In this document: one piece after another, positions 14,149 to 31,542 of the stretch | Numbering within the stretch: position 1 is the first letter of the stretch | How the letters are laid out: each line of letters begins with the position of its first letter | DNA from: an uncultured Sphingomonas sp. | Lineage (GTDB): Bacteria; Pseudomonadota; Alphaproteobacteria; Sphingomonadales; Sphingomonadaceae | Length of the DNA: 64,000 nucleotides | Assembly (NCBI RefSeq): GCF_913778135.1 | Contig: NZ_CAJYVU010000046.1 | Location: 3,928-67,927 of the forward strand | Reading direction: 5' to 3' | Program-made: the position numbers and the translations under genes | Notes under the pieces: generated by a model | What the model saw: only the letters and a program-made list of their open reading frames with translations | What the model was told of the DNA's origin: nothing | Database searches by the model: none

Positions 14149-14648
14149 GTGTTCGCAGGCACCATTTAGAGGCCTGTAGCTGTGACGTTGAGAAGTCAGC
14201 GGCGCATATTCGACCTAAATTGTTCGAAGAATTCCAGTCATCGCCCTCTTCTTGGCTGAAGCTCAAGAAGCGTCATGCGGATCACCATTTTCGGCCGTTC
14301 AGAGCCAGTTTACCCCTCTCCAACTCCGGCCCTTCGTTCACCTCGGCCGAGCGGCGGATTTGGCGCTTTCGTCGAACCGGCTGAACGGCATCGGCGGTAG
14401 ATCTCCGCCCTTCTGAAACTAATGCCCCTATACGGCGTCAGCCGGTCTCCGACGCATCGCGCCGCTTGACGGATCAAACCGTGATTGTGTCGAAGGGGCA
14501 TGAACGATAGCGCAGCGCGAGCGTGACCGGCAGCGAACTAGCCTACCTTGATACTGGGTTAGGTCGAGCGGGTAGCGGCAGGCGGACTGGGAATCGACTC
14601 TCGCGCGCGGCAGCCGCTATCAAAACGGCTAGTCCTCGAAAGGCAATC

Positions 14649-17357: not shown

Positions 17358-17792
17358 TTAGTCGGCCGCTTCATCGATCCACTTCTTCAACATCGCGTGA
17401 TCGACGTAGCTGCGCACGGGGGCCTGAGAATTGACGATGGCTTGAGGCGTCGCACCGACCGGATCAGTCATGCCCGTTTTGTCCTTGAGATGGTTGATGC
17501 GAAGCGCGACAATCCCGTTCCCGCGCGCGATCGACTGCTCGATCTCATAATCGATGTACTTGCGACCCGCTGATTTTGCGCCGATGCACACGACTGTCAC
17601 CGACGTGTTCGCCAAGCCGTTGTCGATGAGCGCTTTAATGGCCTTGTCACCCTTGGTCTTGGCGTCTTCCCACAGTGAGGCGTCGTGGAAGCCCGCCGCC
17701 GCGACGCCGACAATCTCGCCGATGTTGCGGATCTGGTTCACGCGCCAGATGTCGCGATCGTAGTGGAAGCTAAAGAAGACCCGGCGCGCCAC
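17358..17792 (-). CDS. ThsB-like TIR protein (DUF1863/MTH538 type)
   Basis: (GTG)ARRVFFSFHYDRDIWRVNQIRN...TSVTVVCIG...YIDYEIEQS..RGNGIVAL. Confidence 0.88.
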   Translation of the reverse strand: MARRVFFSFHYDRDIWRVNQIRNIGEIVGVAAAGFHDASLWEDAKTKGDKAIKALIDNGLANTSVTVVCIGAKSAGRKYIDYEIEQSIARGNGIVALRINHLKDKTGMTDPVGATPQAIVNSQAPVRSYVDHAMLKKWIDEAAD

Positions 17793-17879
17793 GACTTTAC
17801 TCCAAAGCCAAATCGGACGCATAGCGCGCGTCGATCCCCACGTGCAACGTCCGCAACCGCGAGATCATCGACGTTGCAA

Positions 17880-18365
17880 TCAGGGATGAGCGATCCGCGC
17901 CAGCCTGCATCGAACCCTTTCGACCAGATCTTCCACCGACGACGCCCGCTCGATGCCGTAGCGCTCAGCCGTGATGTCGATGTTACCCTTGCGAAAGTAG
18001 TCGGGCGCGCAGAACACGATCAGCCTTCCTCCGCGGGCGTGTAATCCTAATTCGAGAAGGCTGATAGGACTCTTGGAGCCTGACGCGAAATGCAGCACGA
18101 CAATGTCGGCCACCTCCAGGGCCTCAAGTTCCCACTTGACCTGCTCTCTGAAGTGCGGCTCGTCGGCGACAGGCAGCCAGTCAGCGCTCCAGTCCGCCCG
18201 GCGCGGGTTCACGATCGCCGCGCGCTCGCCGGACAGCAATTCTATGGCCTGCGCCTGCCAATCTTCGGAGTCGCCCATGTCAATGGTGCCGCCTAAGTAA
18301 ACCATCGGCCATCGGTTCGCGTTGGCGAGAGGCTGTGGAGCGGTGATCACGCGGGCGACGGTCAA
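17880..18365 (-). CDS. Nucleoside 2-deoxyribosyltransferase-like protein
   Basis: VYLGGTI, NPRR, QVKWELEALEVAD, SPISLLELG, FRKGNIDI; TTGA overlap with patatin stop. Confidence 0.8.
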   Translation of the reverse strand: MTVARVITAPQPLANANRWPMVYLGGTIDMGDSEDWQAQAIELLSGERAAIVNPRRADWSADWLPVADEPHFREQVKWELEALEVADIVVLHFASGSKSPISLLELGLHARGGRLIVFCAPDYFRKGNIDITAERYGIERASSVEDLVERVRCRLARIAHP

Positions 18366-21100
18366 GCTGGTTCTCCGATCGCTTTCGGTGCAACGATGCC
18401 ATCCCCGGTCACCGACGTGGCCGCGTCAAGAGGCTCAAGCAAGCTCTTTCCCATTGCCGCGAACCAATGTCCGATGTCTACATCCTGGTCTGTCGGGAAC
18501 GCCCCAACGATGCTCTGGAGGAAGAGCTTCTCCCCAACGTGCTGCCCGAGGCTCCGATAGGCCTCAAAGCGGGCCTCGCTAAAGTTCTGATCCGCCGTCG
18601 GATGATGGGGAAAGGCGGGCTCATCGAGCCTAAACCGGCGCAGGAACTCCCCTTCGTTACCGGTGAGGGACAGCTTGAGGTAGAGCATGTAGCCGACCGC
18701 TCCGTCGCGATAGCGGATGCGGCAGAACTGGAAGTGTGAGCGGCTGAGTCCGTCTCCATTACGCCTCAGTTCATCCAGATTGATCTCGATACGCACGCCC
18801 AAGTCGATCGAGGCGAGCCGCTGCAGGTTAGCAATGGCATGAAAGGTCATGTCTTGGTCCTGCTCGCCATCGATCACAACCACGAACTTGCAGCGTCGCC
18901 TCAGCAGCTCGTAGACTCCGAGATTTTCAATATGGCCGCCGTCGGAGAGGTTAAGGAAAGCGGCACGCTCGTCCATCCGACCGGTGAGTTCGCGAAGCAG
19001 GTAACTGAGGCCTGGTAAGCCTTGCGGGCTCGATTTTTCGACCGCGGGATTTCTTAGCCAGTATCCCAGCCTGACGTTCAGCAGCGAAAGCCAAAAGCTG
19101 AACTGCCCCCGATTGTGTAGACCCATGCGGGGCGAGATCGCTGCACCGGAGATCGCCATCGCTGTGGCGATCGTCAGGTCAGGCTCCAGGCACTCCCATT
19201 CCGTCGTCCGGTGATAGCCGCTGATCGGACTGCCACAGTGGTGTGGTGTGAACGAGAAAAAGTCGGTGAGGCGCCCTCGCATCGCTGGTGCGTCGGAACT
19301 CGGCACGTTGAGCGCCGCGTTGAAGATGGGATAGGGGCCGAGACGACCTTCAGCGAGCGAACTGAGCTTGCGGTCGTCGTCGGTGACCACCGCTCCCGGC
19401 TTGGCGTCAGCTACGAGAAACGCTTCCGCCAGCTTGCGCCGATAGTGCCGGTGCAAGCCAGTGACGTTGAGGTTTAAGAAAAAGTGATAGTAGCCTGCGA
19501 TACCAAGCGCGGCGACGGCGAACCAGAGGCCGTATTGCTCATGATCGATAAAAAATGCGGTCGACGCCAGCGTCACGATTGTCACGAACAGCGGGGCGGA
19601 GGAGCGCGCCAACCAGCGCCCGACGATCGGCGCCCTGGTCAGGGTCCGTTCCAGAACGATGCCGACGACCAGCAGGCCGAGCGGAGCGATGCAAACGTAG
19701 AGCAGTTGCAAGGGGTCGTCACCCATCGCGAGAGCCATCCACGCGGCGGATTCCCGCATGCCGATCGCGGCCAGCGCCACGGCCAGAACCACCGCGCACA
19801 TAGCCGTTGCTTGGTCGGCAAACTTCACCCCCTCTCGCCCCTGCCGCCACGCCAACGGCGCTCCGATCATAGCCAAGGAGAGAGCTCCAAGCGAAACGAC
19901 GGCAATCCAGTTGGTAAAGAAGGAAGGTATGAGGATAACGAATAGAGCCGAGAAAAGGCACAGGACCGCAGACAGCGCGAGGAGGTTGTTCAGCAGGCCG
20001 CTCGTCTGCGCGAAGACCGTGGACCATATCTTAGACAAGGGTCCTGACGCTAGATAGCGGCTGTTCTGACGGATGTGACCCGTGGCTGCGGCATCGCGGT
20101 GCGTTTCCCCGAACGGCCTGTCGCCACGCTCTAGTCCGATCGGCCGTGCCGCCTCGATCGCGCCGTCACCGGCCCCGACGTCACCAGCGGGCCCGCTCGT
20201 TCGATCGACATCTGTCGTCTCACCGGCAGCCAGGTAGTTCGTCAGAAATGCCCCGAGATAGCCGCCGCCGCTGACCGTCGAGAGGTAGTCGAACTGCTTG
20301 AGCAGGCCGCGTTTAGCGAACACGGTCAGCACGCCGAGGGCGAAAGTGGCCGACCGAATGCCGCCGCCAGAAAGCGCCAGCCCGGTCGCCCGCTCAGCCG
20401 TTAGCTCAATGCCGTAGCGCAGCCGCCGTCGATTGACCGCCTCCCGCTCAACCGACGCGATTTCGTCAAAGGAGATGCCCTTTACGCCATCGAGATCGTT
20501 CGGATCGCCCTTGTCTAGACCCCAACACAGCGCCACTCCCATCTCCAGATCTACGGCGGCCGCCTCCGCCTGCGGCAGCCGCCCAGGATCCTTCTCGCCC
20601 GCCAGCCTAAGGAGCATGAGATCCAGAGTTCGCAGGGTCTCCTGCAAGGCGGCTAGCTGCAGCCGGAAGTCGTCCGTGTCGTCGAGCGCGGCTAGGCGCC
20701 CCGCGCGATTGCGACGGTGCCAGCGCGAGGTGAATGGGCGAACGTGGTGGTTAAGCACGAACCACGTGACCGTCTCGAAGATTCGCCCCGTCGCGTTCTC
20801 CCGACAGATCACACGCGTCCGTTCGAACAATGCGTGCACGCTCTCAAGCGCAGACACCTCGTCGCCGCTCGAATAGCCGATCTCCTGAGTCGCGACACGC
20901 GACGTCAACTCCAGATGCAGCAGCGAAGCGGCCCTGACATCGGTCTCGCTGGGAGCCCACGCGCGGTGGCCGTGCGCCTCCAGGAACGCGTTCGTTAGGA
21001 CGGGCGTCGCGCCGACGTCCAACGCCCTCAGCTGGTCCTCCCAAGTCGTTTCGCTCACCGACCCCGTCCCATTGCTCGCTACGTCATCCCTGGAAGGCAT
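18362..21100 (-). CDS. Membrane patatin/cPLA2-like phospholipase with unknown N-terminal helical domain
   Basis: GLALSGGGIRSA, YLSTVSGGGY (Ser), LSDGGHIENLG (Asp); central hydrophobic segments; start set at ATG 21100. Confidence 0.85.
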   Translation of the reverse strand: MPSRDDVASNGTGSVSETTWEDQLRALDVGATPVLTNAFLEAHGHRAWAPSETDVRAASLLHLELTSRVATQEIGYSSGDEVSALESVHALFERTRVICRENATGRIFETVTWFVLNHHVRPFTSRWHRRNRAGRLAALDDTDDFRLQLAALQETLRTLDLMLLRLAGEKDPGRLPQAEAAAVDLEMGVALCWGLDKGDPNDLDGVKGISFDEIASVEREAVNRRRLRYGIELTAERATGLALSGGGIRSATFALGVLTVFAKRGLLKQFDYLSTVSGGGYLGAFLTNYLAAGETTDVDRTSGPAGDVGAGDGAIEAARPIGLERGDRPFGETHRDAAATGHIRQNSRYLASGPLSKIWSTVFAQTSGLLNNLLALSAVLCLFSALFVILIPSFFTNWIAVVSLGALSLAMIGAPLAWRQGREGVKFADQATAMCAVVLAVALAAIGMRESAAWMALAMGDDPLQLLYVCIAPLGLLVVGIVLERTLTRAPIVGRWLARSSAPLFVTIVTLASTAFFIDHEQYGLWFAVAALGIAGYYHFFLNLNVTGLHRHYRRKLAEAFLVADAKPGAVVTDDDRKLSSLAEGRLGPYPIFNAALNVPSSDAPAMRGRLTDFFSFTPHHCGSPISGYHRTTEWECLEPDLTIATAMAISGAAISPRMGLHNRGQFSFWLSLLNVRLGYWLRNPAVEKSSPQGLPGLSYLLRELTGRMDERAAFLNLSDGGHIENLGVYELLRRRCKFVVVIDGEQDQDMTFHAIANLQRLASIDLGVRIEINLDELRRNGDGLSRSHFQFCRIRYRDGAVGYMLYLKLSLTGNEGEFLRRFRLDEPAFPHHPTADQNFSEARFEAYRSLGQHVGEKLFLQSIVGAFPTDQDVDIGHWFAAMGKSLLEPLDAATSVTGDGIVAPKAIGEPA

Positions 21101-21196
21101 CGGCCCACCAGGCGCCTGCACGTTAGACACCGCGGCGCTCGCGTCAAAGAACGACCTGTCGCGGAGAAGGGTTGAGTTTGGTCGCGCAAGGTGGGA

Positions 21197-21211
21197 GAAC
21201 GTTGATGGAAC
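21197..21211. promoter_or_regulatory. Alphaproteobacterial LexA (SOS) box
   Basis: GAAC-GTTGATG-GAAC; reverse strand reads TTTGTTC-N7-GTTCT; lies in the divergent intergenic region. Confidence 0.75.
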
Positions 21212-21269
21212 AAATTCCCGTGTCTGAACGCCGGTGCAGCTCGGGTGGAAAAGCGAGGATGACTTTCCG

Positions 21270-21764
21270 ATGGCAAAGCGTCGCCACGTCTTTATCAGCC
21301 ACCACCATGCCGACGACGCCCACGTCAGCGGCCTGACCGACATGCTCAAGCGCAACGGTCATGAGATCCGCAACAGCTCGATCCGCGCCAAGCCGGCCAA
21401 CCAGCGTCGCCTGGATGAGGGCCGCGTGAGCGACAATGCCATCAAACGACTGCTGCGGATGAAGATGAATTGGGCGTCCACGGTCGTAGTGCTGATCGGC
21501 AAGCAGACTCACGCGCGACCGTGGGTCGATTGGGAGATCAGGAAGGCGCACGAGCTGGGGAAGCGGATCGTCGGTGTCTACGAGCGCGGCGGGCGCGAGA
21601 ACGACATTCCGGATGCGTTCAAGAAGTACGGTGACGCCCTCGTCGGCTGGAACTCCGACAATGTGATCGGTGCGATAGACGGCACGTGCTCCCCCTTCGA
21701 ACGACCAGATGGCGGATCGCGCGCCACCTCTGGTGACGGCGCGCGGAGCAGCTGCGCCGCCTAA
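21270..21764 (+). CDS. ThsB-like TIR protein (DUF1863 type)
   Basis: RHVFISHHHADD, STVVVLIG, RPWVDWEIRKA, IVGV. Confidence 0.88.
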   Translation: MAKRRHVFISHHHADDAHVSGLTDMLKRNGHEIRNSSIRAKPANQRRLDEGRVSDNAIKRLLRMKMNWASTVVVLIGKQTHARPWVDWEIRKAHELGKRIVGVYERGGRENDIPDAFKKYGDALVGWNSDNVIGAIDGTCSPFERPDGGSRATSGDGARSSCAA

Positions 21765-22414
21765 TGCCGCACGTCCACGTCTACGCTGTCAGCTACGACC
21801 TAGGCTTCGCGCCGAACCCGTTCGGCGGCGTGTGCAGTCTGGCCTGCTGCAAGCCGGAGATCAGGAGGACCGCGCAACTCGACGACTGGGTCGTCGGATT
21901 GACCAGCACCAAGCTCCCACCAGCGCTGCGGCTCGTGTTCGCAATGAGGGTCTCTAGGATCAGCGACTTCGACGAATACTGGAGTTCGGCGGAGTTCGCC
22001 GGTCGAAAGGCGGCCCGCAACGGTTCGCAGAAGGCGCAGGTGGGCGACAACATTTACCATCGCGACAGACCCGAAACCGACTGGATCCAGGAAGATTCAG
22101 TGCACAGCCTTCCCGGCGGCCTGCAATGCGATCTTAATCGAGATCACGACACGCGCGTGAACCGGATCCTGCTGTCCGACCACTTCCTCTACCTCGGTGA
22201 TCAAGCGCGCGCCGTCCCGAATGAGATACTCGTCGAGCTAAAGTATTGGAAGAATCCGCGTGATCGCCGCAAATTCACGATGGAAGAGGCGGCGGACCTA
22301 ATTGGGTGGATCGAAGGGCTGAAGGCCGCCGCGGCAGCATCCGTCGTCGGCGATCCCATCGACTTCGACAAAACCGGCAAGACGTTCTCCTACGTCGGGC
22401 AGAAGATGATTTGA
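21764..22414 (+). CDS. Nucleotide modification associated domain 2 (Nmad2)-like protein
   Basis: YDLGFAPNPFGGVCSLACCKP.IR, LVFAMRV, GDNIYH, LLSDHFLY; TAATG overlap with TIR stop. Confidence 0.75.
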   Translation: MPHVHVYAVSYDLGFAPNPFGGVCSLACCKPEIRRTAQLDDWVVGLTSTKLPPALRLVFAMRVSRISDFDEYWSSAEFAGRKAARNGSQKAQVGDNIYHRDRPETDWIQEDSVHSLPGGLQCDLNRDHDTRVNRILLSDHFLYLGDQARAVPNEILVELKYWKNPRDRRKFTMEEAADLIGWIEGLKAAAAASVVGDPIDFDKTGKTFSYVGQKMI

Positions 22415-22504
22415 CGGCGATGGTTCACCCCGCAGCGGCCCGGCCGTTCGGTCGATTCCGGATGTCACGCGGCGATTCAATAGCATCAAACATTGTGGGC
22501 TGAC

Positions 22505-24103
22505 GTGACCTCATACCGCAACATCAGCGTGGCGACGGTGAATATCGTTGGGGAGCTGCTGAGCACGGGATCAACGATCTCGGTCCGCGGCTTGCAAACC
22601 CGCGAGGTCCTCGCCCGCCATACGCGACTGGAGCGTCCGCTGGAGCGCTACCTCTTCGTGCCGGAACGCAACGACGACGTCTTCGCGCAGGTCGCAGAAA
22701 CCATGTGGGTGCTCGCCGGCCGGGATGACGTCGCCTGGCTGGAGCGATACCTCCCAAGGGCGCGCGAGTTCTCGGATAATGGCGAGACCTGGCGCGCAGC
22801 ATACGGGCCGCGCCTGCGTAACTGGAACGGACGCGACCAGATTGCCGAGACGGTGCGGCTGCTGACCGAAGACCCGACCAGCCGCCGCGCGGTGATGTCG
22901 CTCTTCGATCCCGACCGCGACTTCATCGAGTCGAAGGACGTTCCGTGCACCAATTGGCTGGGATGGATCATCCGCGATAAGCGGCTCGAAATGAGCGTCA
23001 CGCTGCGCAGCAACGACGTGATATGGGGCTTCTCCGGCGTCAACTCGTTCGAGTGGAGCATCCTGCAGGAGATGCTCGCGTTCTGGCTCGGCGTGGAGGT
23101 CGGCCCCGCGAACTACTTCGCCATGTCGCTGCACCTGTACGACCGGCACGTCGATCGCGCGGGCAGGATTGTGCAGGCGGCGCGACGGCCGTCGCCGTAT
23201 GACTTCAGAATCAAACGGCATCCGTTCGCAACCCCTTGGGTGGATTTTGACGCCAAGCTCGCGCGCTGGTTTGCTCTGGAGCAGGCCGTCTCCACGAATC
23301 CTGGACAGCCGATCGGCAGCTTCGGCTCCGTGGGAGACCCGCTGCTCGATGCCGCACTCACGCTCGTCCACCTGAGGTGGGCCTCGGAGGTCTGGGACGA
23401 CCGGCGACTGGTCCGGGAACTCGGCCAATTACCGGCCGCCGATCACGTCGTGGCCGCCTACCGTCACCTCGGCCGGCGCCGGCCCGATGTCCTTGAGTGC
23501 ATCCCGCAAGAGGAGGTAGCGGCATTCTTCTCCGCGGCCGGAACGGCGGCAGAAATTTCCGACGAGGACGTGAGGGGCGCCATTAAGCGTCTGCACGCGG
23601 AGAAGAACAGAGCCTATGCCGGGGCATGGAAGCGGCGGGGCGAGCTGGTCAGCATTCAACCCAACATCGCCCGCAAGGTCGATCGGCTGGAGACGTTGGT
23701 CGCCACCAGAACGCTCATGGCGGGCGAGACGGCGCTCGACACCGCGATAGACCTCCTTATCTACGCGGAGAAATACCGGCTTTTCTTGGCCGAGGGGATG
23801 ACGCCGGGCACATTGATCCCAACGGACGCTCTGGAGCCGTTAAGCGACCACGACGCCAACCTTGATCTGCTCATCGACCGCTTGGGTCTGACGCCGAGCG
23901 GGCGCGAGGTTGAAATCATCGTACGGGAAATCGTCGAGGCATTCGATCATAGCTGGCGGAGAGCGGAGAGCGGCGCCTTGCCCGAGGACCGTTTCGAGAC
24001 CGCTACCCTCGTGTCCACACTTGCCGGCGAACTTGTGGCACTGCTGGCTGGGCGCGACAGAGAGGCGGTCGCCCGGTTCCTTCGACACGAAGCTCGGAAA
24101 TGA
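22505..24103 (+). CDS. Thymidylate-synthase-superfamily enzyme (dUMP hydroxymethylase-like) fused to DUF1599/Nmad1-like domain
   Basis: DPTSRRAV, DVPCTN (catalytic Cys), LRSNDVIWGFSGVN, SLHLY; C-terminal EKNRAYAGAW...NIARKVDRL...DTAIDLLIYA; start 22493 or 22505. Confidence 0.8.
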   Translation: MTSYRNISVATVNIVGELLSTGSTISVRGLQTREVLARHTRLERPLERYLFVPERNDDVFAQVAETMWVLAGRDDVAWLERYLPRAREFSDNGETWRAAYGPRLRNWNGRDQIAETVRLLTEDPTSRRAVMSLFDPDRDFIESKDVPCTNWLGWIIRDKRLEMSVTLRSNDVIWGFSGVNSFEWSILQEMLAFWLGVEVGPANYFAMSLHLYDRHVDRAGRIVQAARRPSPYDFRIKRHPFATPWVDFDAKLARWFALEQAVSTNPGQPIGSFGSVGDPLLDAALTLVHLRWASEVWDDRRLVRELGQLPAADHVVAAYRHLGRRRPDVLECIPQEEVAAFFSAAGTAAEISDEDVRGAIKRLHAEKNRAYAGAWKRRGELVSIQPNIARKVDRLETLVATRTLMAGETALDTAIDLLIYAEKYRLFLAEGMTPGTLIPTDALEPLSDHDANLDLLIDRLGLTPSGREVEIIVREIVEAFDHSWRRAESGALPEDRFETATLVSTLAGELVALLAGRDREAVARFLRHEARK

Positions 24104-25050
24104 CGCCCAACATCACGACCGACCTCCGGATCCGCCTCGTGCAGACCCTCGCTAAGCGCAATCCGGGCGCCCGCGTTGCGATAGTCGGCTGGTCGACGGC
24201 GGCCATCGAACTCGCTGCCGATCCGATCTTCGCGGAGGGGGCCGCGACGCTCATCGGGCGATATGCAGCGCAAACGGGCGGCTCCATCCTGCCCCTCTCT
24301 GAACTTGCGTCCGCGATCCCAGACGTCGTCGTCGTCGCGGAGGACGACGGCAAAGAGCCCCTCCTCAAGGCGGTAGCGAGGCTGGTTCCCGCGACCACAA
24401 CCATCGTTATCGCCGGCTTCGGTCACTTCGCCTTTCGTGACGAGCTGTTCGACCGCGTCCGGCGCGACGCTCTCATCCCCTCTTTCGCAAACGGGTATCC
24501 CAATTGCCTTGTGCACATTTACCAGTGTCTGAGGAACGCCCGCGCGCGAGGCCTGACCGGCGTTGTGGCGGAGTTCGGCATGTTCAAGGGCGGCACCACC
24601 ATGCTCATGTCCCGCTTCATCGAGGAACTCGGCGCCGACTGGAAGGTGATTGGCTTCGATACGTTCGATGGCTTTCCGTCGAAGCGCAGCCCACTGGACA
24701 TGTACGCTCATCCTGACTGCGTATTTCTCGACGTGGGCACCCTGCGCGCCATGTTCGCAGGCCGCGACGTCGAGATCGTCGAGGGAGACGTAGTGGAGAC
24801 ATGCGCGCGTCTCAATGACGAGCGGCTCGTGCTCTCTTTTGTGGACACGGACAATTACACGTCGGCCAATGCGATCCTGGCAGTCATAGCGGATCGCACT
24901 CAGGTGGGTGGCGCCATCGTGTTTGATCATTGGACAGGCGTCGATCGGTACCTCGACACCATTGGCGAGCGGATAGCGGCGATGACTCTGGCCGCGGATC
25001 GACGCTACTTCAACCTGCACGGCACCGGTGTATTTCTGAGGCAGGAATGA
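24100..25050 (+). CDS. TylF/MycF-family O-methyltransferase with N-terminal Rossmann-like domain
   Basis: VAEFGMFKGG, GFDTFDGFP, VEGDVVET, FVDTDNY, GGAIVFDHW. Confidence 0.82.
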   Translation: MTPNITTDLRIRLVQTLAKRNPGARVAIVGWSTAAIELAADPIFAEGAATLIGRYAAQTGGSILPLSELASAIPDVVVVAEDDGKEPLLKAVARLVPATTTIVIAGFGHFAFRDELFDRVRRDALIPSFANGYPNCLVHIYQCLRNARARGLTGVVAEFGMFKGGTTMLMSRFIEELGADWKVIGFDTFDGFPSKRSPLDMYAHPDCVFLDVGTLRAMFAGRDVEIVEGDVVETCARLNDERLVLSFVDTDNYTSANAILAVIADRTQVGGAIVFDHWTGVDRYLDTIGERIAAMTLAADRRYFNLHGTGVFLRQE

Positions 25051-26159
25051 GCGCAACCGGCAGCCATTTCGTGCGGCGCGTACCGCCGATGCCACGCGCC
25101 GGCGTCTACGACCTGTACTGGCAGTTCGCATCAAAGCGCCAAGCGGCGTTCGAGGCCCGGCTTGCGGGCAGCTGCTGGCCTTGGTCGCCCGACCCGATTC
25201 TGCAGACCTTCAAGTTCTGCAATGTTTATCGTGCAGCCGACCGCGTGTCACAATACCTCATTCGGCACGTGGCCTACGACAACCATCCGGAAACGACGCC
25301 TAGAGACCGCGTTTTCCAGATCACGGCCTTCCGCACGTTCAGCAAGATCGCGACGTGGGAGGGGGTAGTCGATGAGCTGGGCGGTCCACCGATGCTAGAG
25401 CACCTCCGCTCCGGCGCATTTGAGACGGCGCTTGACCAGGTCAGGGCGCGCAACGGCGGTCTCTATACAGGTGCCTTCATCCTATGCGCCAACAAGGCCT
25501 TCGGCTTCCAGGAAAAGCACCGAAATCACATTGCGTTGTTCAAGCACATGTTCCTAGAGAGCATGTGCGCTGAACGGGTCCTACAGTTGCCTTCCCTACG
25601 CGGCGTTGTGGAGCTGCTGCAGAGCTTCCCGCTGCTCGGGCCCTTTATGGCGTACCAGACCGCCATCGACATCAACTACTCTGAACTGACGGCATTTAGC
25701 GAGAACGACCACACCCAGGCCGGCCCTGGCGCGCTCCGCGGCTTAAAGAAGGCCTTTATCCACCTGGGTGACCATTCGCCGTCCGACGCAATTCTGTGGA
25801 TGGTCGACAACCAGGAAGCTGAATTCGCACGCTTGGACCTACCGTTCCAAGGGTTGTTCGGTCGGCCTCTGCACGCGATCGACTGCCAAGGTCTGTTCTG
25901 CGAACTCGACAAGTACTGCCGCGAGGCCGTGCCGGACCTGACCAGCGCGAGGAGCAGGATTAAGGCGCGGTATCGCGGGTCAAACGATGCTATCGATCTG
26001 TTCTTTCCGCCCAAGTGGAAATTGTTCACCACGGCCGGCATACCTGCGGCGCACATCAAAGTGCTCGGCAATCGATCGGTTATGCGGCCGAGGATAGCCA
26101 GAAGCCATAGCCGCGACGGCCGGGGAATGCGCGACCTCTTCGATACCGCGCGAGACTGA
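25047..26159 (+). CDS. 5-hmdU DNA kinase-like helical domain protein (aGPT-Pplase1 family)
   Basis: PWSPDPILQTFKFCNVYRAADRVSQYL, FRTFSKIATW, AYQTAID, GPGALRGL, FCELDKY. Confidence 0.8.
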   Translation: MSATGSHFVRRVPPMPRAGVYDLYWQFASKRQAAFEARLAGSCWPWSPDPILQTFKFCNVYRAADRVSQYLIRHVAYDNHPETTPRDRVFQITAFRTFSKIATWEGVVDELGGPPMLEHLRSGAFETALDQVRARNGGLYTGAFILCANKAFGFQEKHRNHIALFKHMFLESMCAERVLQLPSLRGVVELLQSFPLLGPFMAYQTAIDINYSELTAFSENDHTQAGPGALRGLKKAFIHLGDHSPSDAILWMVDNQEAEFARLDLPFQGLFGRPLHAIDCQGLFCELDKYCREAVPDLTSARSRIKARYRGSNDAIDLFFPPKWKLFTTAGIPAAHIKVLGNRSVMRPRIARSHSRDGRGMRDLFDTARD

Positions 26160-26692: not shown

Positions 26693-27367
26693 TTATTCAC
26701 CAGCGGCATCCCGACGAGCCGCTTCAAACTCAAGAAGGGAGACTTCGATTAGAGAAATCTGTTCAAGTGGGTAGTAACGTTCAGCACCCTCAACACAGGA
26801 GATTTCAACGAAGTTGATCTTGTCATCGTCTTCGAGTTCGAGGAGCGCAATGAGGTTAGTTCGATTGGCTTCGTAACTGATCGAGGTACCGTTCCGAAAA
26901 TGGATCGTCGTGTGACGTAGATACTTAACGAGCTCCTCCTGTCGGTCTGTGAATCCTGCAGTATCGATTATTGACGCAACTTCGGCGCGTGCACTCAGCG
27001 TGTTAGATACTTCAAACTCCGGATCACCTTCTGCCCACAATGACATGAGCCTGTAAGTTTCTATGGGTAGGCCAGCATAGTCGTTAAAGGGTCCATCGCA
27101 TGGGTGGTCGCCTTTAGGCCAATAATCTCCATCATCGAGCAGCGAGATCATCGGCATCTGAAGCAGGTCGACAATAAGCAGCCGGTTATTCAGAGTTTCG
27201 ATGATGGAGATGCCACCAATCGAGGAGCGCAGCCGCCTGCGTACCTGCAGCTCCGTTTCTTCTGAGATCGGAAACCAAGCGGAACGTTGCCGCCTAGGAC
27301 CGCGTAAGCCGAGATGGCCAGAGAAGCCCGCCCCGAGACCTTCACGAGTTGTCCTTCCTACTTTCAT
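26693..27367 (-). CDS. Hypothetical protein
   Basis: 224 aa ORF with ATGA overlap to the upstream ORF. Confidence 0.6.
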   Translation of the reverse strand: MKVGRTTREGLGAGFSGHLGLRGPRRQRSAWFPISEETELQVRRRLRSSIGGISIIETLNNRLLIVDLLQMPMISLLDDGDYWPKGDHPCDGPFNDYAGLPIETYRLMSLWAEGDPEFEVSNTLSARAEVASIIDTAGFTDRQEELVKYLRHTTIHFRNGTSISYEANRTNLIALLELEDDDKINFVEISCVEGAERYYPLEQISLIEVSLLEFEAARRDAAGE

Positions 27368-27930
27368 AGGACCTCGCAGATGAAGAGCGCACCAGGCAAA
27401 GCACGCTTCAGAGTCTCGGCATAGCGAACTGCATCAAACCGGTATGAAAACCCATCGGACGTCGCAGCAGATACGGCAGTCGCATCGCCAGCTGCGATCA
27501 GCTTCTTCTCCGTAGAAAACACCATAAAGGCAGCCTCACCGCGCTCCGCGATGCTCATTTCCCGCTCGAACCATCGTTTGCGCGCTGGCTCCGTCATGGC
27601 TGCGAACGATTGCTTGAACGCAGCCATCTTCTCCCCAGCCCCTTCTACACGCCAGCTGGTCAAGTCGCATGACAAGTGCCCGAGCGCCGCGTAGACAAAC
27701 CTTCCCAAAGCAGGAGTCACAATTCCTACGGGAATCCTCGCCTGAACAGCGTCTGCGAGAGCCATAAGACCGATACCCGCAGCCACATCAGTTTGAAGCG
27801 AGCTATTTGGTACGGCGCAACGATACGCGTGATGAAGGTTTTCGCCACGCACTCTCGACAAATCAACCAAAGTCCTTAATTGCCCGTGCGGGATATTATA
27901 TTGGCTAATTTTAGCCTTTAAAGATTCCAT
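27364..27930 (-). CDS. Hypothetical protein
   Basis: GGAG RBS before ATG 27930; coupled to the next ORF. Confidence 0.6.
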   Translation of the reverse strand: MESLKAKISQYNIPHGQLRTLVDLSRVRGENLHHAYRCAVPNSSLQTDVAAGIGLMALADAVQARIPVGIVTPALGRFVYAALGHLSCDLTSWRVEGAGEKMAAFKQSFAAMTEPARKRWFEREMSIAERGEAAFMVFSTEKKLIAAGDATAVSAATSDGFSYRFDAVRYAETLKRALPGALFICEVL

Positions 27931-27970
27931 CCATACACTCCTTCCAAAACACCTTTGCACCTGGTGCGGT

Positions 27971-28404: not shown

Positions 28405-29244
28405 ATGCAGACAGCTCCCACCATCGACCTACGCCGAGCAGGCGGTGCGTTCACAAAATCCGATTCGCCGGTCTTTGATGCGACTTCCAAACAATCGCTC
28501 CAGTCGGCGACTGCAGCAGCTCGTGATTTTAGTGGGCTGGCTGTTGAGCGGATTGTGATCGTCCGCGCACCCGACCGGGACCAGTTGCGGGGCCAGATTA
28601 CCGGTACGAAGACGGTTCGTACGCTGAGCTATCCCTCACGGAAAACGCAGCGCGCGCGCTTTGCTGAAGGAGCCGCCGAGTTCGAGCGGATCGAGGCTGA
28701 AGAGGTTGAAGTCGCGGTTGTCGACGGCGTTGCGCAGCCGATGCGCATCGAAGCGCTAGTTCATACCCCCGCGGGTCCGAATTGGCTTTCCCATATTCCC
28801 GATTTCGCGACGCTTTACGCGAATGGAGAGCGTGCACTTGTCGACGCCAAGCGCGTGTGGAGTGATTTTCGGAAGCCGCTCGGTTACAAACAGACATTCC
28901 TTGGGCAGCTCGCCGCCGACATGATGGGGTACCGCTACGAGCGAATTATCCTCGGGAGCGCTGGTAGCGACGTGCGCCGTCGCAACATCAATGAGGTGCA
29001 GGCAGCACGCTTCGTGCACGTTCCCGATCACCTCGCGGCACGGGCCGCACTAATCCTCAAAGCCGGCGGCATTTCACTTGGCCACTTGAGTGACCTTCTT
29101 CACCCCGCAAACGGCCGCGCGATGGTTTTCGCGCTCATGGTTCGCCGCTTGGTAGAGATCGATCTGGATCGCCCCTTAGGGGTCAACAGTGAATGTCGTG
29201 CAGTGCCCGCCCTGCCCTCCGCAATGCCAAGCATCCGTCACTAG
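28405..29244 (+). CDS. tnsA: TnsA-like PD-(D/E)XK endonuclease
   Basis: SRK...AQP.RI...HIPDF...ALVDAK; first gene of the tns operon. Confidence 0.75.
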   Translation: MQTAPTIDLRRAGGAFTKSDSPVFDATSKQSLQSATAAARDFSGLAVERIVIVRAPDRDQLRGQITGTKTVRTLSYPSRKTQRARFAEGAAEFERIEAEEVEVAVVDGVAQPMRIEALVHTPAGPNWLSHIPDFATLYANGERALVDAKRVWSDFRKPLGYKQTFLGQLAADMMGYRYERIILGSAGSDVRRRNINEVQAARFVHVPDHLAARAALILKAGGISLGHLSDLLHPANGRAMVFALMVRRLVEIDLDRPLGVNSECRAVPALPSAMPSIRH

Positions 29245-29322: not shown

Positions 29323-31542
29323 ATGAGTAAGAACTCCATCAATGGCGCCATTGGAGCCACGTTCATCACAGGTGCTGGTGAAAAGCTTCTTGTTGAGCGC
29401 GAGCTCGGCGACGGACATCTTTACGTCATAACGGTACCCGGTGGCGCTCTCTACCGGACACAGGACCAAACGACTGGCGATCTTCTGCTGCCGGACACCA
29501 ACTGGCTTGAACGTGGCCTGTCAGACGGATCTTTGCGGCTTTATAACGCGAATAATAGCGGCATCGCACCCGAGCGCAAGCTCGCTAAGGTCTTCGACCG
29601 TGACGCCATCCTCACGCTTGATCCGTACGCTGAGGCGCGCCTAGCTGTCATCTCAACGCTCATCGAACGCGGCATCTCCTCGGCTGGTCCGCGACTTGAA
29701 GCCGAGATCAGGAGGGCTTGGACCGATGATCTTGAAAAGAAGCATGGCCCGTGTCCTGAGGTCGGAACCGTTCGGACTTGGTTTGGCCGGTGCCGCGGCG
29801 ACTCCTGCGATCTTGCTGATATGCTCAGCATGTCAGGACGCGTCCCGCGCGCGAACCGTCTTGCTCCGGCCGTCGAGACAATCATCGAAGCTGCTCGCAA
29901 CCGCTTCTGGAGAAGTCGCGGATGGAAGATCATCGACGTTCAGGCCGAGGTTAGCTCGGAGATTTGCAACGCGAATCGGCAACGTCTTCTCGTCGGCGAG
30001 CCCCCGCTCAGGATTCCTGGGAAGGAGACAATTCGCCGCCGGGTGAACGAGCTGCTCTGCCGAGATACTTACGCCGACAAGTACGGCGAGCCAGCTGCGC
30101 GCCGCAAGTTCGACGGTTCGGGTAAAGGTATCTCCGCCTCTCGCATTCTTCAGGTCGCACTGATGGATGACACGGTCGTCGACCTCGTCACAGTCCTGGA
30201 CATGGATCGCGGCCTGATCGCGGGCCGTCCCTACCTGAATGTTCTGATGGATGTGCACTCACGGTGCATTCTCGCCGTCACCGTCAGCTTCCAACCACCT
30301 ACGGTCGACAAAGCAGCGGAGTGCATACGTATCGCGCTGAACTGCGTTCGTGAAGGAAATCGACCCAAGGTCAACCTGCGCCCGGAATGGCTCCAGCAGC
30401 ACCCCGGTCTTGCAACAATAAATGGCAAGCCCGCCAAGGTCATCACTGACAACGGGTTCAACTACGTAGCGCCGGCCTTCACAGAAATGATGCTCGACCT
30501 CGGTATCATTCACGAGCTCGCGCCGGTGAAAGCGCCGCGTCACAAGGCGATGATCGAACGCTTCTTTCGCTCCTTCAACACCTTCCTGATCGACAAGCTT
30601 CCGGGCGCAACCCTCGATCCCAGCATTCTACGCAAGCTTGGTATCGATCCCACAAGTGAAGCAATCGTATCGATGTCCGAGTTAACGGAGCTGATCGAGC
30701 GCTTCGTCTACATCTATCATATCACCCACCATAGCGGAATCGATACCGCTCCGTTGCAAAAGTGGAGCGCCAGCATGGCTGTTCATGGACGAGACATGAT
30801 CTTGGACAACCGACAGATCGATATTGTTACCGGCATCACGGTACACAACAAGAGGATTACTGCCGGAGGTGGTGTACGAATGTTCGGCATGATCTGGAAA
30901 GGCGCCGGGCTTGACCGCGTTATCGAGGCACTTGCCGCGAAAGAGCCACACCGCAAACGTCTGGACGCCACCGCAGCCGTCACAACCAAGATCAAGTACA
31001 ACCCTGAGAATCTTCTTCACGTACTCGTCTACGTTGGCAACGACTGGATTGAGCTAGAGAATACTCAGCCAGACTACGCCGCTAACCTGTCACTGTGGCA
31101 TCATCGCCAAATCCGCGCTTGGTCCAAGAGCCAGTCTCTAGCGTTTGCGAGCGATGCCGATCGGCTGGCTGCCCGCCACTCGCTCAATCTGGCGATCCGT
31201 GATGCGTTTCCCGAGATGCCCGCGCGCGAACGCCGCGCCGCAGCACGCCTGCTTGGGTCGCGTAGCAAGGCCGAACCCGCCCACGCAGTTGATTTTGCCG
31301 ATGCGCCGCCGCGCCACGACGGAATGGCTTCCATCATCCATCACGACGTACCGGCGAACACCCGTAGAGATGCTCACCGAGCGATGAGCCGCCCGATCAA
31401 GAGTGATGACGTTTCCGTGCATTTTGACGAGGATGAAAGCGGCAACGCGGATAACGAAGCTCCGCTTCTCAAACCCAGCATCCCGCTCGTTGAGCTTTCG
31501 GACTTCGACGCGGATGATCTTGACGATGAGGAGTATCGTTGA
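29323..31542 (+). CDS. tnsB: TnsB-like DDE (Mu-type) transposase
   Basis: LMDDT (D), MDVHSRCIL, ITDNG (D), PRHKAMIERFF (E). Confidence 0.9.
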   Translation: MSKNSINGAIGATFITGAGEKLLVERELGDGHLYVITVPGGALYRTQDQTTGDLLLPDTNWLERGLSDGSLRLYNANNSGIAPERKLAKVFDRDAILTLDPYAEARLAVISTLIERGISSAGPRLEAEIRRAWTDDLEKKHGPCPEVGTVRTWFGRCRGDSCDLADMLSMSGRVPRANRLAPAVETIIEAARNRFWRSRGWKIIDVQAEVSSEICNANRQRLLVGEPPLRIPGKETIRRRVNELLCRDTYADKYGEPAARRKFDGSGKGISASRILQVALMDDTVVDLVTVLDMDRGLIAGRPYLNVLMDVHSRCILAVTVSFQPPTVDKAAECIRIALNCVREGNRPKVNLRPEWLQQHPGLATINGKPAKVITDNGFNYVAPAFTEMMLDLGIIHELAPVKAPRHKAMIERFFRSFNTFLIDKLPGATLDPSILRKLGIDPTSEAIVSMSELTELIERFVYIYHITHHSGIDTAPLQKWSASMAVHGRDMILDNRQIDIVTGITVHNKRITAGGGVRMFGMIWKGAGLDRVIEALAAKEPHRKRLDATAAVTTKIKYNPENLLHVLVYVGNDWIELENTQPDYAANLSLWHHRQIRAWSKSQSLAFASDADRLAARHSLNLAIRDAFPEMPARERRAAARLLGSRSKAEPAHAVDFADAPPRHDGMASIIHHDVPANTRRDAHRAMSRPIKSDDVSVHFDEDESGNADNEAPLLKPSIPLVELSDFDADDLDDEEYR

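What the first reader, a model, noticed from the sequence alone, without database searches (positions are those of the whole stretch)
22505..24103. TS-like enzyme with dUMP-type Asn fused to a DUF1599/Nmad1 domain
The catalytic Cys (VPC) and RSND are kept. The specificity position appears to be Asn (WGFSGVN, one-residue insertion), as in dUMP-using enzymes, rather than the Asp of T4 dCMP hydroxymethylase. RSND and the divergent N-terminus resemble phage hydroxymethylases more than ThyA. The helical C-terminal domain could be a (d)NTP pyrophosphatase that reshapes the nucleotide pool (inference).
Basis: partly seen in the sequence, partly recalled or inferred. Interest (0 to 1): 0.65.

Follow-up and report, generated by a model that had tools for sequence, protein, structure and literature searches.

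The report
Defence-island dUMP hydroxymethylase fused to Nmad1-like domain
This gene is not the cell's thymidylate synthase but a phage-type enzyme predicted to make 5-hydroxymethyl-dUMP, fused to a helical domain of unknown function, and it is the nucleotide-making part of a mobile five-gene cassette related to DS-4, an anti-phage system shown to work in E. coli whose mechanism is still unknown.

Summary
The ORF at 22505-24103 (532 aa) is a thymidylate-synthase-superfamily enzyme. It keeps the catalytic Cys148, the RSND motif and Asn180 at the base-specificity position.

It is not ThyA. The genome has a full ThyA on another contig. This protein groups with phage dUMP hydroxymethylases, and its best solved relative is MilA, a CMP hydroxymethylase. 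It carries the hydroxymethylase Asp three residues before the Cys, plus the Arg/Ser/Asn trio that indicates a deoxyribose sugar and a uracil base.

The C-terminal 190 aa is a confident helical domain on the edge of DUF1599/Nmad1: the window's copy misses the Pfam model, but 20 of 50 stand-alone homologues hit it (E<=1).

The gene sits in a conserved cassette: ThsB-TIR, Nmad2, TS~Nmad1, TylF-like, HMUDK_hel. This is a distant variant of E. coli DS-4 (DefensePredictor, 2026). In 80 genomes the Nmad1-like domain always follows either a TS-like or a MazG-MazG_C enzyme, in the slot that holds a dNMP kinase in DS-4.

An earlier follow-up in this scan noted the DS-4 kinship on the same DNA. I rate this a new variant of a known kind; its mechanism is unknown.

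The parts
21197..21211 (.). LexA-type direct-repeat box, GAACGTTGATGGAAC (GAAC-N7-GAAC), about 60 nt upstream of the TIR gene's ATG
   Evidence: Read directly. It is one of only 3 such motifs in the 64 kb window. A GTTC-N7-GTTC box lies in the same intergenic region of three Afipia-type loci, and none is present in the gammaproteobacterial Vreelandella locus.
21234..21764 (+). ThsB-type TIR protein, first gene of the cassette (likely ATG at 21270)
   Evidence: Pfam ThsB_TIR E 6.6e-21. PADLOC ThsB1 model PDLC00418 E 9e-55 over its full length.
21764..22414 (+). Nmad2 protein, translationally coupled to the TIR gene
   Evidence: Pfam Nmad2 E 2.4e-63. The same gene is present in E. coli DS-4 (WP_047174762.1).
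22505..23209 (+). TS-fold catalytic core of the target protein (residues 1-235), predicted dUMP 5-hydroxymethylase
   Evidence: Pfam PF00303 E 4e-22. PHROGs 3676 and 5131 E ~1e-64. MilA E 1e-29 against ThyA 7e-15. Residues E65, Y100, R127, R128, D145, C148, R168, S169, D171, N180, H210 and Y212 mapped.
23210..23524 (+). Helical extension of the hydroxymethylase (residues ~236-340), MilA-like, where ThyA has its active-site-closing C-terminal tail
   Evidence: Foldseek aligns 346 columns to MilA 5jnh (TMt 0.84) but only about 225 columns to ThyA structures. Helices 245-347 in the model. The MilA paper describes a five-helix C-terminal region (PMC5175136).
23525..24103 (+). Nmad1-like (DUF1599-related) helical domain, residues ~341-532
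   Evidence: 393 representative proteins match at E<=1e-3, most of the best 150 stand-alone at about 190 aa. PF07659 is hit by 20 of 50 homologues at E<=1. Model pLDDT 93. No PDB fold match.
24100..25050 (+). TylF-type methyltransferase-like protein; its start overlaps the target's stop
   Evidence: Pfam TylF E 7.6e-11 and Methyltransf_24 E 6e-8. Present in 53 of 80 related cassettes.
25047..26159 (+). Stand-alone HMUDK_hel protein (formerly aGPT-Pplase clade 1), with no P-loop kinase domain
   Evidence: Pfam PF18723 E 5.3e-91. 23% identical to DS-4C, E 2e-17. No PF18748 kinase anywhere in the genome. Present in 74 of 80 related cassettes.

Best explanation
The ORF encodes a two-part protein.

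N-terminal part (residues 1-340). This is a thymidylate-synthase-fold pyrimidine hydroxymethylase. From its sequence I predict that Cys148 attacks C6 of dUMP, the one-carbon unit of 5,10-methylene-THF is transferred to C5, and the exocyclic methylene intermediate is quenched by water rather than by hydride. The products would be 5-hydroxymethyl-dUMP and THF, not dTMP and DHF.

C-terminal part (residues 341-532). This is a divergent Nmad1/DUF1599-like helical domain of unknown chemistry. By position, it handles the nucleotide made by whichever enzyme stands upstream of it.

Context. The protein is the input enzyme of a horizontally mobile five-gene cassette (ThsB-TIR, Nmad2, TS~Nmad1, TylF-like, HMUDK_hel). 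The cassette is a distant variant of E. coli DS-4, an experimentally validated anti-phage system.

Inferred steps, none shown here. The cassette may be switched on by DNA damage through the LexA-type box. hmdUMP would then be made at the expense of dTTP precursors and passed on, most likely into replicating DNA. There the DNA-base-directed HMUDK_hel protein, with the TylF-like enzyme where present, would recognise or further modify hmdU, while TIR and Nmad2 sense or execute. Phage replication would be poisoned or the infected cell arrested.
For: Enzyme identity:
- PF00303 match.
- All NCBIfam ThyA equivalogs score far below their cut-offs, e.g. 62.6 bits against 327.
- A complete ThyA lies elsewhere in the genome.
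- In the tree the two ThyAs are separated with 99% support. The window protein sits in a bacterial clade next to a clade that holds the two actinophage TS~Nmad1 fusions among other fusion proteins.
- The nearest phage proteins come from phages that replace or hypermodify T through hmdU: SPO1-like, ViI-like and M6-like phages, and Montesquieu with its aGPT-Pplase genes.
- The best solved relative by sequence and by fold is MilA, a CMP hydroxymethylase, including its helical extension.

Signatures:
- Asp145 lies three residues before Cys148, as in T4 dCH D145. ThyA has Leu143 there (PMC6400193).
- R127, S169 and N180 correspond to MilA K133', A176 and D186. Those positions set ribose versus deoxyribose and cytosine versus uracil (PMC5175136).
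- These residues are kept in 46-48 of 49 cassette copies.

Context:
- The same five genes occur in the same order in Afipia-type and Vreelandella loci with different flanks.
- DS-4 consists of TS, DNMK, HMUDK_hel, TIR and Nmad2 and protects E. coli (PMC13092281).
- TS is 33% identical to DS-4A (E 7e-36) and HMUDK_hel is 23% identical to DS-4C (E 2e-17).
- In 80 genomes the Nmad1-like domain is always fused to, or directly after, a TS-like enzyme (50) or a MazG-MazG_C enzyme (30). HMUDK_hel is present in 74.
- The gene lies in a low-GC island among TIR-NLR, ThsB and patatin genes.
- It was not found in 36 same-genus or 24 same-order genomes searched.
Against: - No biochemical datum exists for any bacterial member of this family. 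The choice between hydroxymethylation and methylation is inferred from signatures and relatives.
- Similarity to DS-4 is distant, and two components differ: the Nmad1-like domain plus TylF-like here, a dNMP kinase in DS-4. Defence activity of this variant is therefore extrapolated.
- The genome has no DNMK and no 5-hmdU DNA kinase P-loop domain, so the route from hmdUMP to DNA and any later chemistry are unexplained.
- Sister cassettes replace the TS-like enzyme with MazG-MazG_C. hmdU therefore cannot be essential to the conserved Nmad1/HMUDK_hel core in general.
- The relative arrangement of the two halves of the protein is uncertain (pTM 0.66).
Confidence: 0.65

Rival explanations
1. One reading: it is an all-alpha (d)NTP pyrophosphatase of the MazG or dimeric-dUTPase type. 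It would supply dUMP from dUTP, or remove dTTP, so that the hydroxymethylated nucleotide dominates the pool.
For: - Phages that replace T with hmdU are known to need such activities (my own knowledge of SPO1 and phi-e biology).
- The invariant residues are acidic and basic (E380, E408, D412, D416; K367, K376, R378, R390, K391, R394), as expected for a site that binds metal and phosphate.
- BFVD gives weak matches to phage dUTPase and NTP-PPase-like models: TM 0.34-0.44, E 0.3-0.9.
Against: - No PDB fold match at E<0.1, despite many MazG and dUTPase structures.
- The profile search of PDB sequences finds none.
- hhalign probability is 0.4% against the MazG domain of sister cassettes.
- In 30 of 80 cassettes the domain sits beside, or is fused to, a genuine MazG. 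That would make a second pyrophosphatase largely redundant.
Confidence: 0.15
2. The cassette is a captured phage pathway that modifies the bacterium's own DNA. hmdU-derived marks would serve as self-labelling or protection, or the cassette is a remnant of a prophage. It would not be an infection-triggered defence.
For: - Every characterised relative of the TS-like and HMUDK_hel proteins works in phage DNA hypermodification (PMC5889632, PMC8989533).
- Phage Montesquieu carries the same HMUDK_hel plus TS~Nmad1 gene pair.
Against: - No phage structural or replication genes lie around it.
- No P-loop 5-hmdU DNA kinase is found in the genome, and no clade-2 transferase showed up among the cassette or island proteins scanned.
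- Its neighbours are defence genes.
- The homologous DS-4 reduces phage plating.
- A LexA-type box suggests the cassette is repressed in normal growth.
Confidence: 0.12
3. The cassette makes a free pyrimidine antimetabolite, following the logic of bacimethrin or mildiomycin. A TS-like hydroxymethylase would be followed by an N-glycosidase with a TIR/NDT-type fold and then an O-methyltransferase, giving a small-molecule toxin rather than modified DNA.
For: - The best solved relative is MilA, from a nucleoside-antibiotic pathway.
- The cassette holds a TylF-type O-methyltransferase-like gene and a TIR-fold gene.
- BcmA, BcmB and BcmC have the same three activities (my own knowledge; BcmA is named in PMC5175136).
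Against: - The sugar and base determinants are the deoxy-uracil set R127, S169, N180. MilA and BcmA have the ribo-cytosine set K, A, D.
- The TIR protein matches a ThsB model over its full length at 9e-55.
- HMUDK_hel belongs to a DNA-directed family.
- TylF-like is missing from 27 of 80 cassettes, and TIR from 44 of 80.
Confidence: 0.08
4. It is simply a second, divergent thymidylate synthase that makes dTMP, for example a back-up or a drug- or phage-resistant isoenzyme.
For: - NCBI and JGI annotate the family as 'thymidylate synthase'.
- All dUMP-binding and catalytic residues are present.
Against: - ThyA equivalog scores are 5- to 20-fold below their cut-offs.
- It has Asp instead of Leu three residues before the Cys, none of ThyA's Trp residues at the W80/W83 site, and no ThyA C-terminal tail.
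- It is separated from ThyA in the tree.
- Its nearest relatives are hydroxymethylases.
- The genome already has a ThyA.
Confidence: 0.04

Closest known systems
E. coli DS-4 ('NTTI'; WP_087900468.1 TS, WP_087900469.1 dNMP kinase, WP_087900470.1 HMUDK_hel, WP_072044445.1 TIR, WP_047174762.1 Nmad2), DefensePredictor, Science 2026 (PMC13092281)
   Same: Four of the five gene families are shared: a TS-like enzyme with the same loop insertion and Asn, HMUDK_hel, TIR and Nmad2. Both lie on accessory DNA. DS-4 is validated as anti-phage, with unknown mechanism.
   Different: - Identity is only 33% (TS core) and 23% (HMUDK_hel).
- DS-4A is 361 aa and has no Nmad1-like domain.
- DS-4 carries a T4 gp1-like dNMP kinase (Pfam DNMK, 30.2 bits) where this cassette has the Nmad1-like domain plus a TylF-like gene.
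- Gene order differs.
Phage dUMP hydroxymethylases (SPO1 gp29 type; the ViI-like and M6-like enzymes)
   Same: Same TS fold, the Asp-x-x-Cys signature, RS(N/Q)D, the G-x-x-x-x-N loop with one extra residue, and an Asn specificity residue. Identity is 30-38% over the core.
   Different: The phage enzymes are 348-383 aa and lack an Nmad1-like domain. They serve bulk replacement or hypermodification of the phage's own DNA, and sit next to dNMP kinase, dUTPase or 5-HMUDK and transferase genes.
Actinophage TS~Nmad1 fusions (Glutamicibacter phage Montesquieu MONT_51; Brevibacterium phage LuckyBarnes gp41)
   Same: The same two-domain architecture (516-517 aa). They are 35-38% identical through the conserved core of the Nmad1-like domain, to residue ~430. 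In Montesquieu the neighbouring gene is an HMUDK_hel (aGPT-Pplase clade 1) protein.
   Different: They are phage genes set among replication genes, with clade-2 transferase or glycosyltransferase partners. They have no TIR, Nmad2 or TylF-like neighbours.
MilA, CMP 5-hydroxymethylase of mildiomycin biosynthesis (PDB 5JNH, 5B6D)
   Same: The best solved match by sequence (E 1e-29) and by fold (TMt 0.84 over 346 columns), including the multi-helix extension after the TS core.
   Different: MilA has Lys133', Ala176 and Asp186 (ribose, cytosine). This protein has Arg127, Ser169 and Asn180 (deoxyribose, uracil). MilA lacks the one-residue loop insertion and the Nmad1-like domain.
DUF1599 / Nmad1 (Pfam PF07659)
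   Same: An all-helical domain with the K-x3-Y-x3-W ... R-K-x-D-R core. PF07659 is the only Pfam family that recurs among homologues of the C-terminal domain. Phage proteins named Nmad1 appear among the weak fold matches.
   Different: The window's own domain does not match the 61-position model at any reported threshold. Canonical DUF1599 was not found in 301 genomes of the same phylum. The domain here is about 190 aa, three times the length of the Pfam core.

Membership tests
Thymidylate synthase superfamily (Pfam PF00303) | Profile match above the gathering score | tested here: met
   79.1 bits against a cut-off of 24.3, residues 21-235.
Thymidylate synthase superfamily (Pfam PF00303) | Catalytic Cys nucleophile, the general acid/base Glu and Tyr, the phosphate-binding Arg residues, and the His/Tyr sugar contacts | tested here: met
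   C148, E65, Y100, R127, R128, R168, H210 and Y212 align with E. coli C146, E58, Y94, R126, R127, R166, H207 and Y209. They are kept in at least 42 of 49 cassette copies: R128 in 42 (Gln in 6), the other seven in 47-48.
ThyA (dTMP-forming thymidylate synthase, EC 2.1.1.45) | Scores above the NCBIfam equivalog cut-offs | tested here: not met
   Best scores are 79 against 174.55 (TIGR03283) and 62.6 against 327 (NF002497).
ThyA (dTMP-forming thymidylate synthase, EC 2.1.1.45) | Solvent-excluding Leu143/Trp83 pair and a C-terminal tail that closes over the folate for hydride transfer | tested here: not met
   Asp145 stands in place of Leu143. The IW(D/T)EW site reads PRAREF. A helical extension replaces the tail (criteria from PMC6400193, and PMC5175136).
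ThyA (dTMP-forming thymidylate synthase, EC 2.1.1.45) | Groups with housekeeping ThyA in a tree | tested here: not met
   The genome's own ThyA and M. tuberculosis ThyA form a separate branch with 99% SH-aLRT support.
Pyrimidine 5-hydroxymethylases (T4 gp42, SPO1 gp29, MilA) | Asp three residues before the catalytic Cys (T4 dCH Asp145), proposed to keep the active site hydrated | tested here: met
   D145-V-P-C148. The same Asp is present in T4 gp42, MilA, the SPO1-like, M6-like and ViI-like enzymes and DS-4A, and is absent from both ThyAs.
Pyrimidine 5-hydroxymethylases (T4 gp42, SPO1 gp29, MilA) | Closer to known hydroxymethylases than to TS in sequence and fold | tested here: met
   MilA E 1e-29 against ThyA 7e-15. 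Foldseek MilA E 2.8e-18 and TMt 0.84 against ThyA E 1e-12. T4 gp42 itself is more distant (E 1e-8).
Pyrimidine 5-hydroxymethylases (T4 gp42, SPO1 gp29, MilA) | The product is the 5-hydroxymethyl nucleotide plus THF | not testable with these tools
   Needs an enzyme assay.
dUMP-specific subgroup (dUH) | Asn at the base-specificity position and the Arg/Ser pair at the sugar pocket (MilA D186, K133', A176 equivalents) | tested here: met
   N180, R127 and S169. The rule is taken from PMC5175136.
DUF1599 / Nmad1 (PF07659) | Own sequence matches the family model | tested here: not met
   No hit at E<=10 for the isolated domain. No hit in the genome search.
DUF1599 / Nmad1 (PF07659) | Linked to the family through intermediate sequences | tested here: inconclusive
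   20 of 50 stand-alone homologues hit PF07659 at E<=1, but only 3 at E<=1e-3; the best is 6.4e-7. One neighbour is listed with 'DUF1599 (weak)'. Fold matches to named Nmad1 proteins are weak, E 0.07 and 0.55.
All-alpha NTP pyrophosphatases (MazG, dimeric dUTPase) | Fold or profile similarity to MazG or dUTPase | tested here: not met
   Foldseek against the PDB: best E 0.1, to unrelated helical proteins. hmmsearch of PDB sequences: none. hhalign against the cassette MazG domain: probability 0.4%. Only sub-threshold BFVD matches.
DS-4 anti-phage system (DefensePredictor) | TS-like, HMUDK_hel, TIR and Nmad2 genes in one cassette | tested here: met
DS-4 anti-phage system (DefensePredictor) | T4 gp1-like dNMP kinase gene (DS-4B) | tested here: not met
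   No PF21448 match in the genome. None lies near any of the 80 related cassettes, though that test used a single-sequence model of low sensitivity.
DS-4 anti-phage system (DefensePredictor) | Protects a host against phage | not testable with these tools
   Shown only for the E. coli system (PMC13092281).

The most novel reading that the evidence does not exclude
The Nmad1-like domain would be a new, non-P-loop enzyme that processes the phosphate end of the nucleotide made by its upstream partner. It might, for example, phosphorylate or pyrophosphorylate hmdUMP, or hand it to the DNA-directed HMUDK_hel protein. In that role it would replace the T4 gp1-like dNMP kinase of E. coli DS-4.

The whole family (TS or MazG-MazG_C, then Nmad1, then HMUDK_hel, with or without TylF, TIR and Nmad2) would then be a widespread, damage-inducible immune strategy. 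The bacterium would turn the phages' own thymidine-hypermodification chemistry against replicating phage DNA.
Probability: 0.2. Interest if true: 0.8.

Novelty: new variant of a known kind. Interest (0 to 1): 0.5.

Why it matters
DS-4 is one of the few validated defence systems built around a nucleotide-modifying enzyme, and its mechanism is unknown.

This window holds a distinct and much more widespread-looking subtype. The TS~Nmad1 protein has more than 1100 relatives. Related cassettes occur in Alpha- and Gammaproteobacteria, Actinomycetota, Acidobacteriota, Verrucomicrobiota and Firmicutes.

The comparison made here narrows the problem in three ways:
- The invariant core is an input nucleotide enzyme, a Nmad1-like domain and HMUDK_hel.
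- The input enzyme can be swapped between a dUMP hydroxymethylase and MazG-MazG_C.
- The Nmad1-like domain occupies the slot held by a dNMP kinase in DS-4.

Each of these points is directly testable. It would also give the Nmad1/DUF1599 superfamily, which has been without a function since it was named, a defined biochemical setting. Finally, it would correct the routine database label 'thymidylate synthase' for this family.

Tried and rejected
- Direct Pfam scan of the isolated C-terminal and middle regions at E<=10 returned nothing relevant.
- Searching 301 genomes of the same phylum for canonical DUF1599, to build a reference alignment for profile-profile comparison, found none. That hhalign test could not be run.
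- Foldseek of the isolated domain against the PDB found no meaningful match. A PDB sequence search with the domain profile found only chance hits.
- hhalign of the domain profile against the MazG and MazG_C domains of sister cassettes gave probabilities of 0.4% and 0.16%. My first attempt was confounded by fusion proteins in the template alignment.
- I asked whether phages with TS~Nmad1 fusions lack any dNMP or dTMP kinase. The search found nothing even in LIMEstone1, which has both annotated, so the positive control failed and the test is void.
- I had supposed that the Nmad1-like domain is always paired with TylF-like. The 80-locus survey rejected this: TylF-like is absent from 27.
- I had supposed that DS-4B is the split kinase half of a 5-hmdU DNA kinase. 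It matches the T4 gp1-type DNMK family instead.
- The 2013 paper by Iyer et al. that named the Nmad domains is not held in the library.
- Two paper searches for a published mechanism found nothing specific.
- P0112 was not on record for a neighbourhood look-up.
Full report
THE OBSERVATION

The window has one long open frame at 22493-24103 on the + strand. That equals the product called in public data (P0001, 100% identity) and agrees with the N-termini of the homologues. The stop overlaps the ATG of the next gene.

Pfam Thymidylat_synt matches residues 21-235 at E 4e-22. The one-residue insertion before the Asn appears as a gap in the phmmer alignments to MilA and to M. tuberculosis ThyA.

NOT THE HOUSEKEEPING ENZYME

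The same genome (99% complete) has a full-length ThyA on another contig. It scores 346.9 bits over all 266 model positions, against 81 bits for this gene. Every NCBIfam ThyA equivalog scores far below its cut-off.

I built a maximum-likelihood tree of 41 TS-fold cores. The genome's own ThyA and M. tuberculosis ThyA split from everything else with 99% support. The window protein lies in a clade of 520-550 aa bacterial proteins. The next clade holds the two actinophage fusion proteins. A poorly resolved group holds the ViI-like, M6-like and SPO1-like phage enzymes, E. coli DS-4A and MilA. T4 gp42 sits on a long branch. Four rows with unrelated N-termini were in that tree, and I left them out of the later alignments.

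WHY A dUMP HYDROXYMETHYLASE

1. In the phage collection the best matches come from phages that use hmdU:
- Glutamicibacter phage Montesquieu, annotated 'thymidylate synthase/pyrimidine hydroxymethylase', next to aGPT-Pplase genes.
- Brevibacterium phage LuckyBarnes, followed by two glycosyltransferases.
- M6-like Bordetella phages.
- SPO1-like Bacillus phages.
- ViI-like Dickeya phages.

2. The best solved relative is MilA, a CMP 5-hydroxymethylase.
- By sequence: E 1e-29, against 7e-15 for ThyA.
- By fold: TMt 0.84 over 346 columns, so the match includes the helical region after the core. ThyA structures align over only about 225 columns (model pLDDT 87).
- The MilA paper describes exactly such a five-helix C-terminal region. 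In ThyA a 27-residue tail closes over the folate (PMC5175136).

3. The T4 dCMP-hydroxymethylase ternary-complex paper points to two E. coli TS residues, Leu143 and Trp83, which keep water out. In dCH they are Asp145 and Val85 (PMC6400193).
- The window protein has Asp145, three residues before Cys148.
- So does every hydroxymethylase in my alignment. Both ThyAs have Leu.
- The ThyA IW(D/T)EW site reads PRAREF here.

4. The MilA paper shows that three positions set the substrate. Lys133'/Ala176 against Arg/Ser decides ribose or deoxyribose, and Asp186 against Asn decides cytosine or uracil. Here they are Arg127, Ser169 and Asn180, the deoxy-uracil set.

5. Across 49 TS-like ORFs from related cassettes in other genomes these residues are kept in 46-48 copies. 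That argues for an active enzyme rather than a decayed one.

The product itself has not been measured. This part is inference from signatures.

THE C-TERMINAL DOMAIN

Residues ~341-532 form a separate helical domain with many invariant charged and aromatic residues. Modelled alone it reaches pLDDT 93 and pTM 0.90.

A search of 1.8 billion representative proteins found 393 relatives at E<=1e-3. Of the best 150:
- 81 are stand-alone proteins of 260 aa or less.
- 45 are TS-like fusions of at least 450 aa.
- 12 are shorter proteins that still match the TS-like part.
- 12 have other architectures. These include MazG-MazG_C fusions and one radical-SAM/SPASM fusion.

Is it DUF1599/Nmad1?
- The window's copy does not match PF07659 at any reported threshold.
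- Among 50 stand-alone homologues, PF07659 is the only recurring family: 20 at E<=1, 3 at E<=1e-3, best 6.4e-7.
- Phage proteins named Nmad1 appear among the weak fold matches.
- I therefore call it Nmad1-like: a divergent relative, not a demonstrated member.

Is it a pyrophosphatase?
- Foldseek finds nothing in the PDB below E 0.1.
- The domain profile finds no PDB sequence.
- hhalign against the MazG domain encoded in sister cassettes gives a probability of 0.4%.
- The domain is often fused to, or adjacent to, a true MazG.
- Only sub-threshold BFVD matches to dUTPase-like models point that way.

THE CONTEXT THAT EXPLAINS THE GENE

The ORF is the third of five tightly packed + strand genes:
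- ThsB-type TIR (21234-21764)
- Nmad2 (21764-22414)
- TS~Nmad1-like, the target
- TylF-like (24100-25050)
- HMUDK_hel, formerly aGPT-Pplase clade 1 (25047-26159)

They lie in a 30 kb low-GC island together with a TIR-NLR, a ThsB/NDT/patatin operon and Tn7-like transposition genes. The same five genes, in the same order, occur in Afipia-type and Vreelandella genomes with different flanks. The domain was not found in 36 other species of the genus or in 24 of the order. The cassette is mobile accessory DNA.

The literature search turned up DefensePredictor (Science 2026, PMC13092281). Its validated system DS-4 ('NTTI') is an E. coli operon of a 361-aa TS, an 'adenylate kinase', a 'putative DNA base hypermodification protein' (HMUDK_hel), a TIR protein and an Nmad2 protein.
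- The TS cores are 33% identical (E 7e-36), and the HMUDK_hel proteins 23% (E 2e-17).
- DS-4B matches the T4 gp1-type DNMK family.
- The window's genome has no DNMK and no P-loop 5-hmdU DNA kinase.
- None of the four non-TIR proteins is in PADLOC 2.0.

An earlier follow-up in this scan, on the adjacent stretch, also named DS-4. I had reached it independently from the paper.

SURVEY OF 80 GENOMES

Using the domain alignment I fetched 80 loci from species-representative genomes. I annotated them with HMMs built from the cassette proteins.
- The Nmad1-like domain is always fused to, or immediately downstream of, one of two enzymes: a TS-like enzyme in 50 loci (49 fused) or MazG-MazG_C in 30 loci (9 fused). 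It is never found without one.
- HMUDK_hel is present in 74 loci, and some of the remaining loci are short or end close to the match.
- TylF-like is present in 53.
- Nmad2 is present in 35 and TIR in 36, almost all of them in the TS-type cassettes.
- A common actinobacterial form is TS~Nmad1, HMUDK_hel, and divergent Nmad2 and TIR. That is the DS-4 gene set with the dNMP kinase replaced by the Nmad1-like domain.

The conserved core is therefore an input nucleotide enzyme, a Nmad1-like domain and HMUDK_hel. The TS-like domain is one of two interchangeable inputs.

HOW IT MOST LIKELY WORKS

Supported by sequence and fold evidence: the protein is a catalytically intact TS-fold enzyme of the hydroxymethylase type, with deoxy-uracil determinants. 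It sits inside a mobile cassette homologous to a validated defence system.

Inferred:
- It converts dUMP and CH2-THF into hmdUMP and THF.
- The fused domain acts on that nucleotide's phosphate end or passes it on. This rests on its position, on its invariant acidic and basic residues, and on its equivalence to the DNMK slot.
- hmdU then reaches DNA, where the DNA-base-directed HMUDK_hel protein, with TylF-like where present, recognises or modifies it. TIR and Nmad2 would sense or execute.
- A GAAC-N7-GAAC box lies about 60 nt before the TIR gene. A matching GTTC-N7-GTTC box occurs in the Afipia-type loci, and none in the gammaproteobacterial locus. This suggests SOS control, so the chemistry would run only in damaged or infected cells.

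What does not fit:
- The MazG-type sister cassettes have no hydroxymethylase, so hmdU cannot be the universal substrate of the core.
- No kinase is evident that would take hmdUMP to the triphosphate.

VERDICT

The hydroxymethylase reading is well supported, the Nmad1 label is only partly supported, and the pyrophosphatase idea is unsupported.

The gene is ordinary within a large, mis-annotated family. That family belongs to a defence system type whose mechanism is open, and this subtype differs from the one validated example in two components. I rate it a new variant of a known kind, with interest 0.5.

Noticed in passing
window 21197-21211: A GAAC-N7-GAAC direct repeat (alphaproteobacterial LexA-box type) lies between the divergent patatin and TIR operons. 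It is one of 3 such motifs in the 64 kb window. A GTTC-N7-GTTC box sits at the same place in three Afipia-type loci, and none in the Vreelandella locus.
   Followed up: partly
window ~14000-44000: A block with GC 0.53-0.64 sits against flanks at 0.66-0.71 (most 2-kb bins at or above 0.68). It holds a TIR-STAND-TPR protein (14523-17177), a ThsB-TIR / Nuc_deoxyri_tr2 / patatin operon on the - strand (17358-21355), the cassette described here, and Tn7-like genes (rve-type transposase 29323-31542, TniB 31539-32525, and a 655-aa ORF 32512-34479 with no Pfam match).
   Followed up: partly
window 26693-27960 (- strand) and 28405-29244: Three ORFs of 224, 198 and 279 aa lie between the cassette and the transposition genes. 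None has a Pfam match at E<=0.001.
   Followed up: no
L029 (Sphingomonas sp. ID0503) and L028 (Devosia MAG): L029 is the closest genomic relative of the cassette (87% identity in the domain). It and a Devosia copy show the Nmad2, TS, Nmad1 or TylF genes split across frames. This means either decaying copies or long-read assembly errors.
   Followed up: no
P0198 (578 aa, metagenomic): A radical-SAM/SPASM enzyme is fused to the same Nmad1-like domain. It is a third kind of catalytic partner, besides TS-like and MazG-MazG_C.
   Followed up: no
L080 (Paractinoplanes polyasparticus): Two MazG-type cassettes lie side by side: HMUDK_hel with MazG~Nmad1, followed by MazG, TylF and HMUDK_hel. This suggests tandem duplication or stacking of subtypes.
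   Followed up: no
L014 (metagenome contig, SRR28211907): A MazG-type cassette sits next to a Shedu-like SduA_C gene and an HTH / Peptidase_M78 pair. A 4'-phosphopantetheinyl-transferase-like gene (ACPS) lies directly upstream of the stand-alone Nmad1-like gene.
   Followed up: no
L008 (Brevibacterium phage LuckyBarnes) 5998-9162: The phage TS~Nmad1 fusion has the uracil-type Asn, yet it is followed by two genes annotated as beta-glucosyl-HMC glucosyltransferases. The phage may glycosylate hmU rather than hmC.
   Followed up: no
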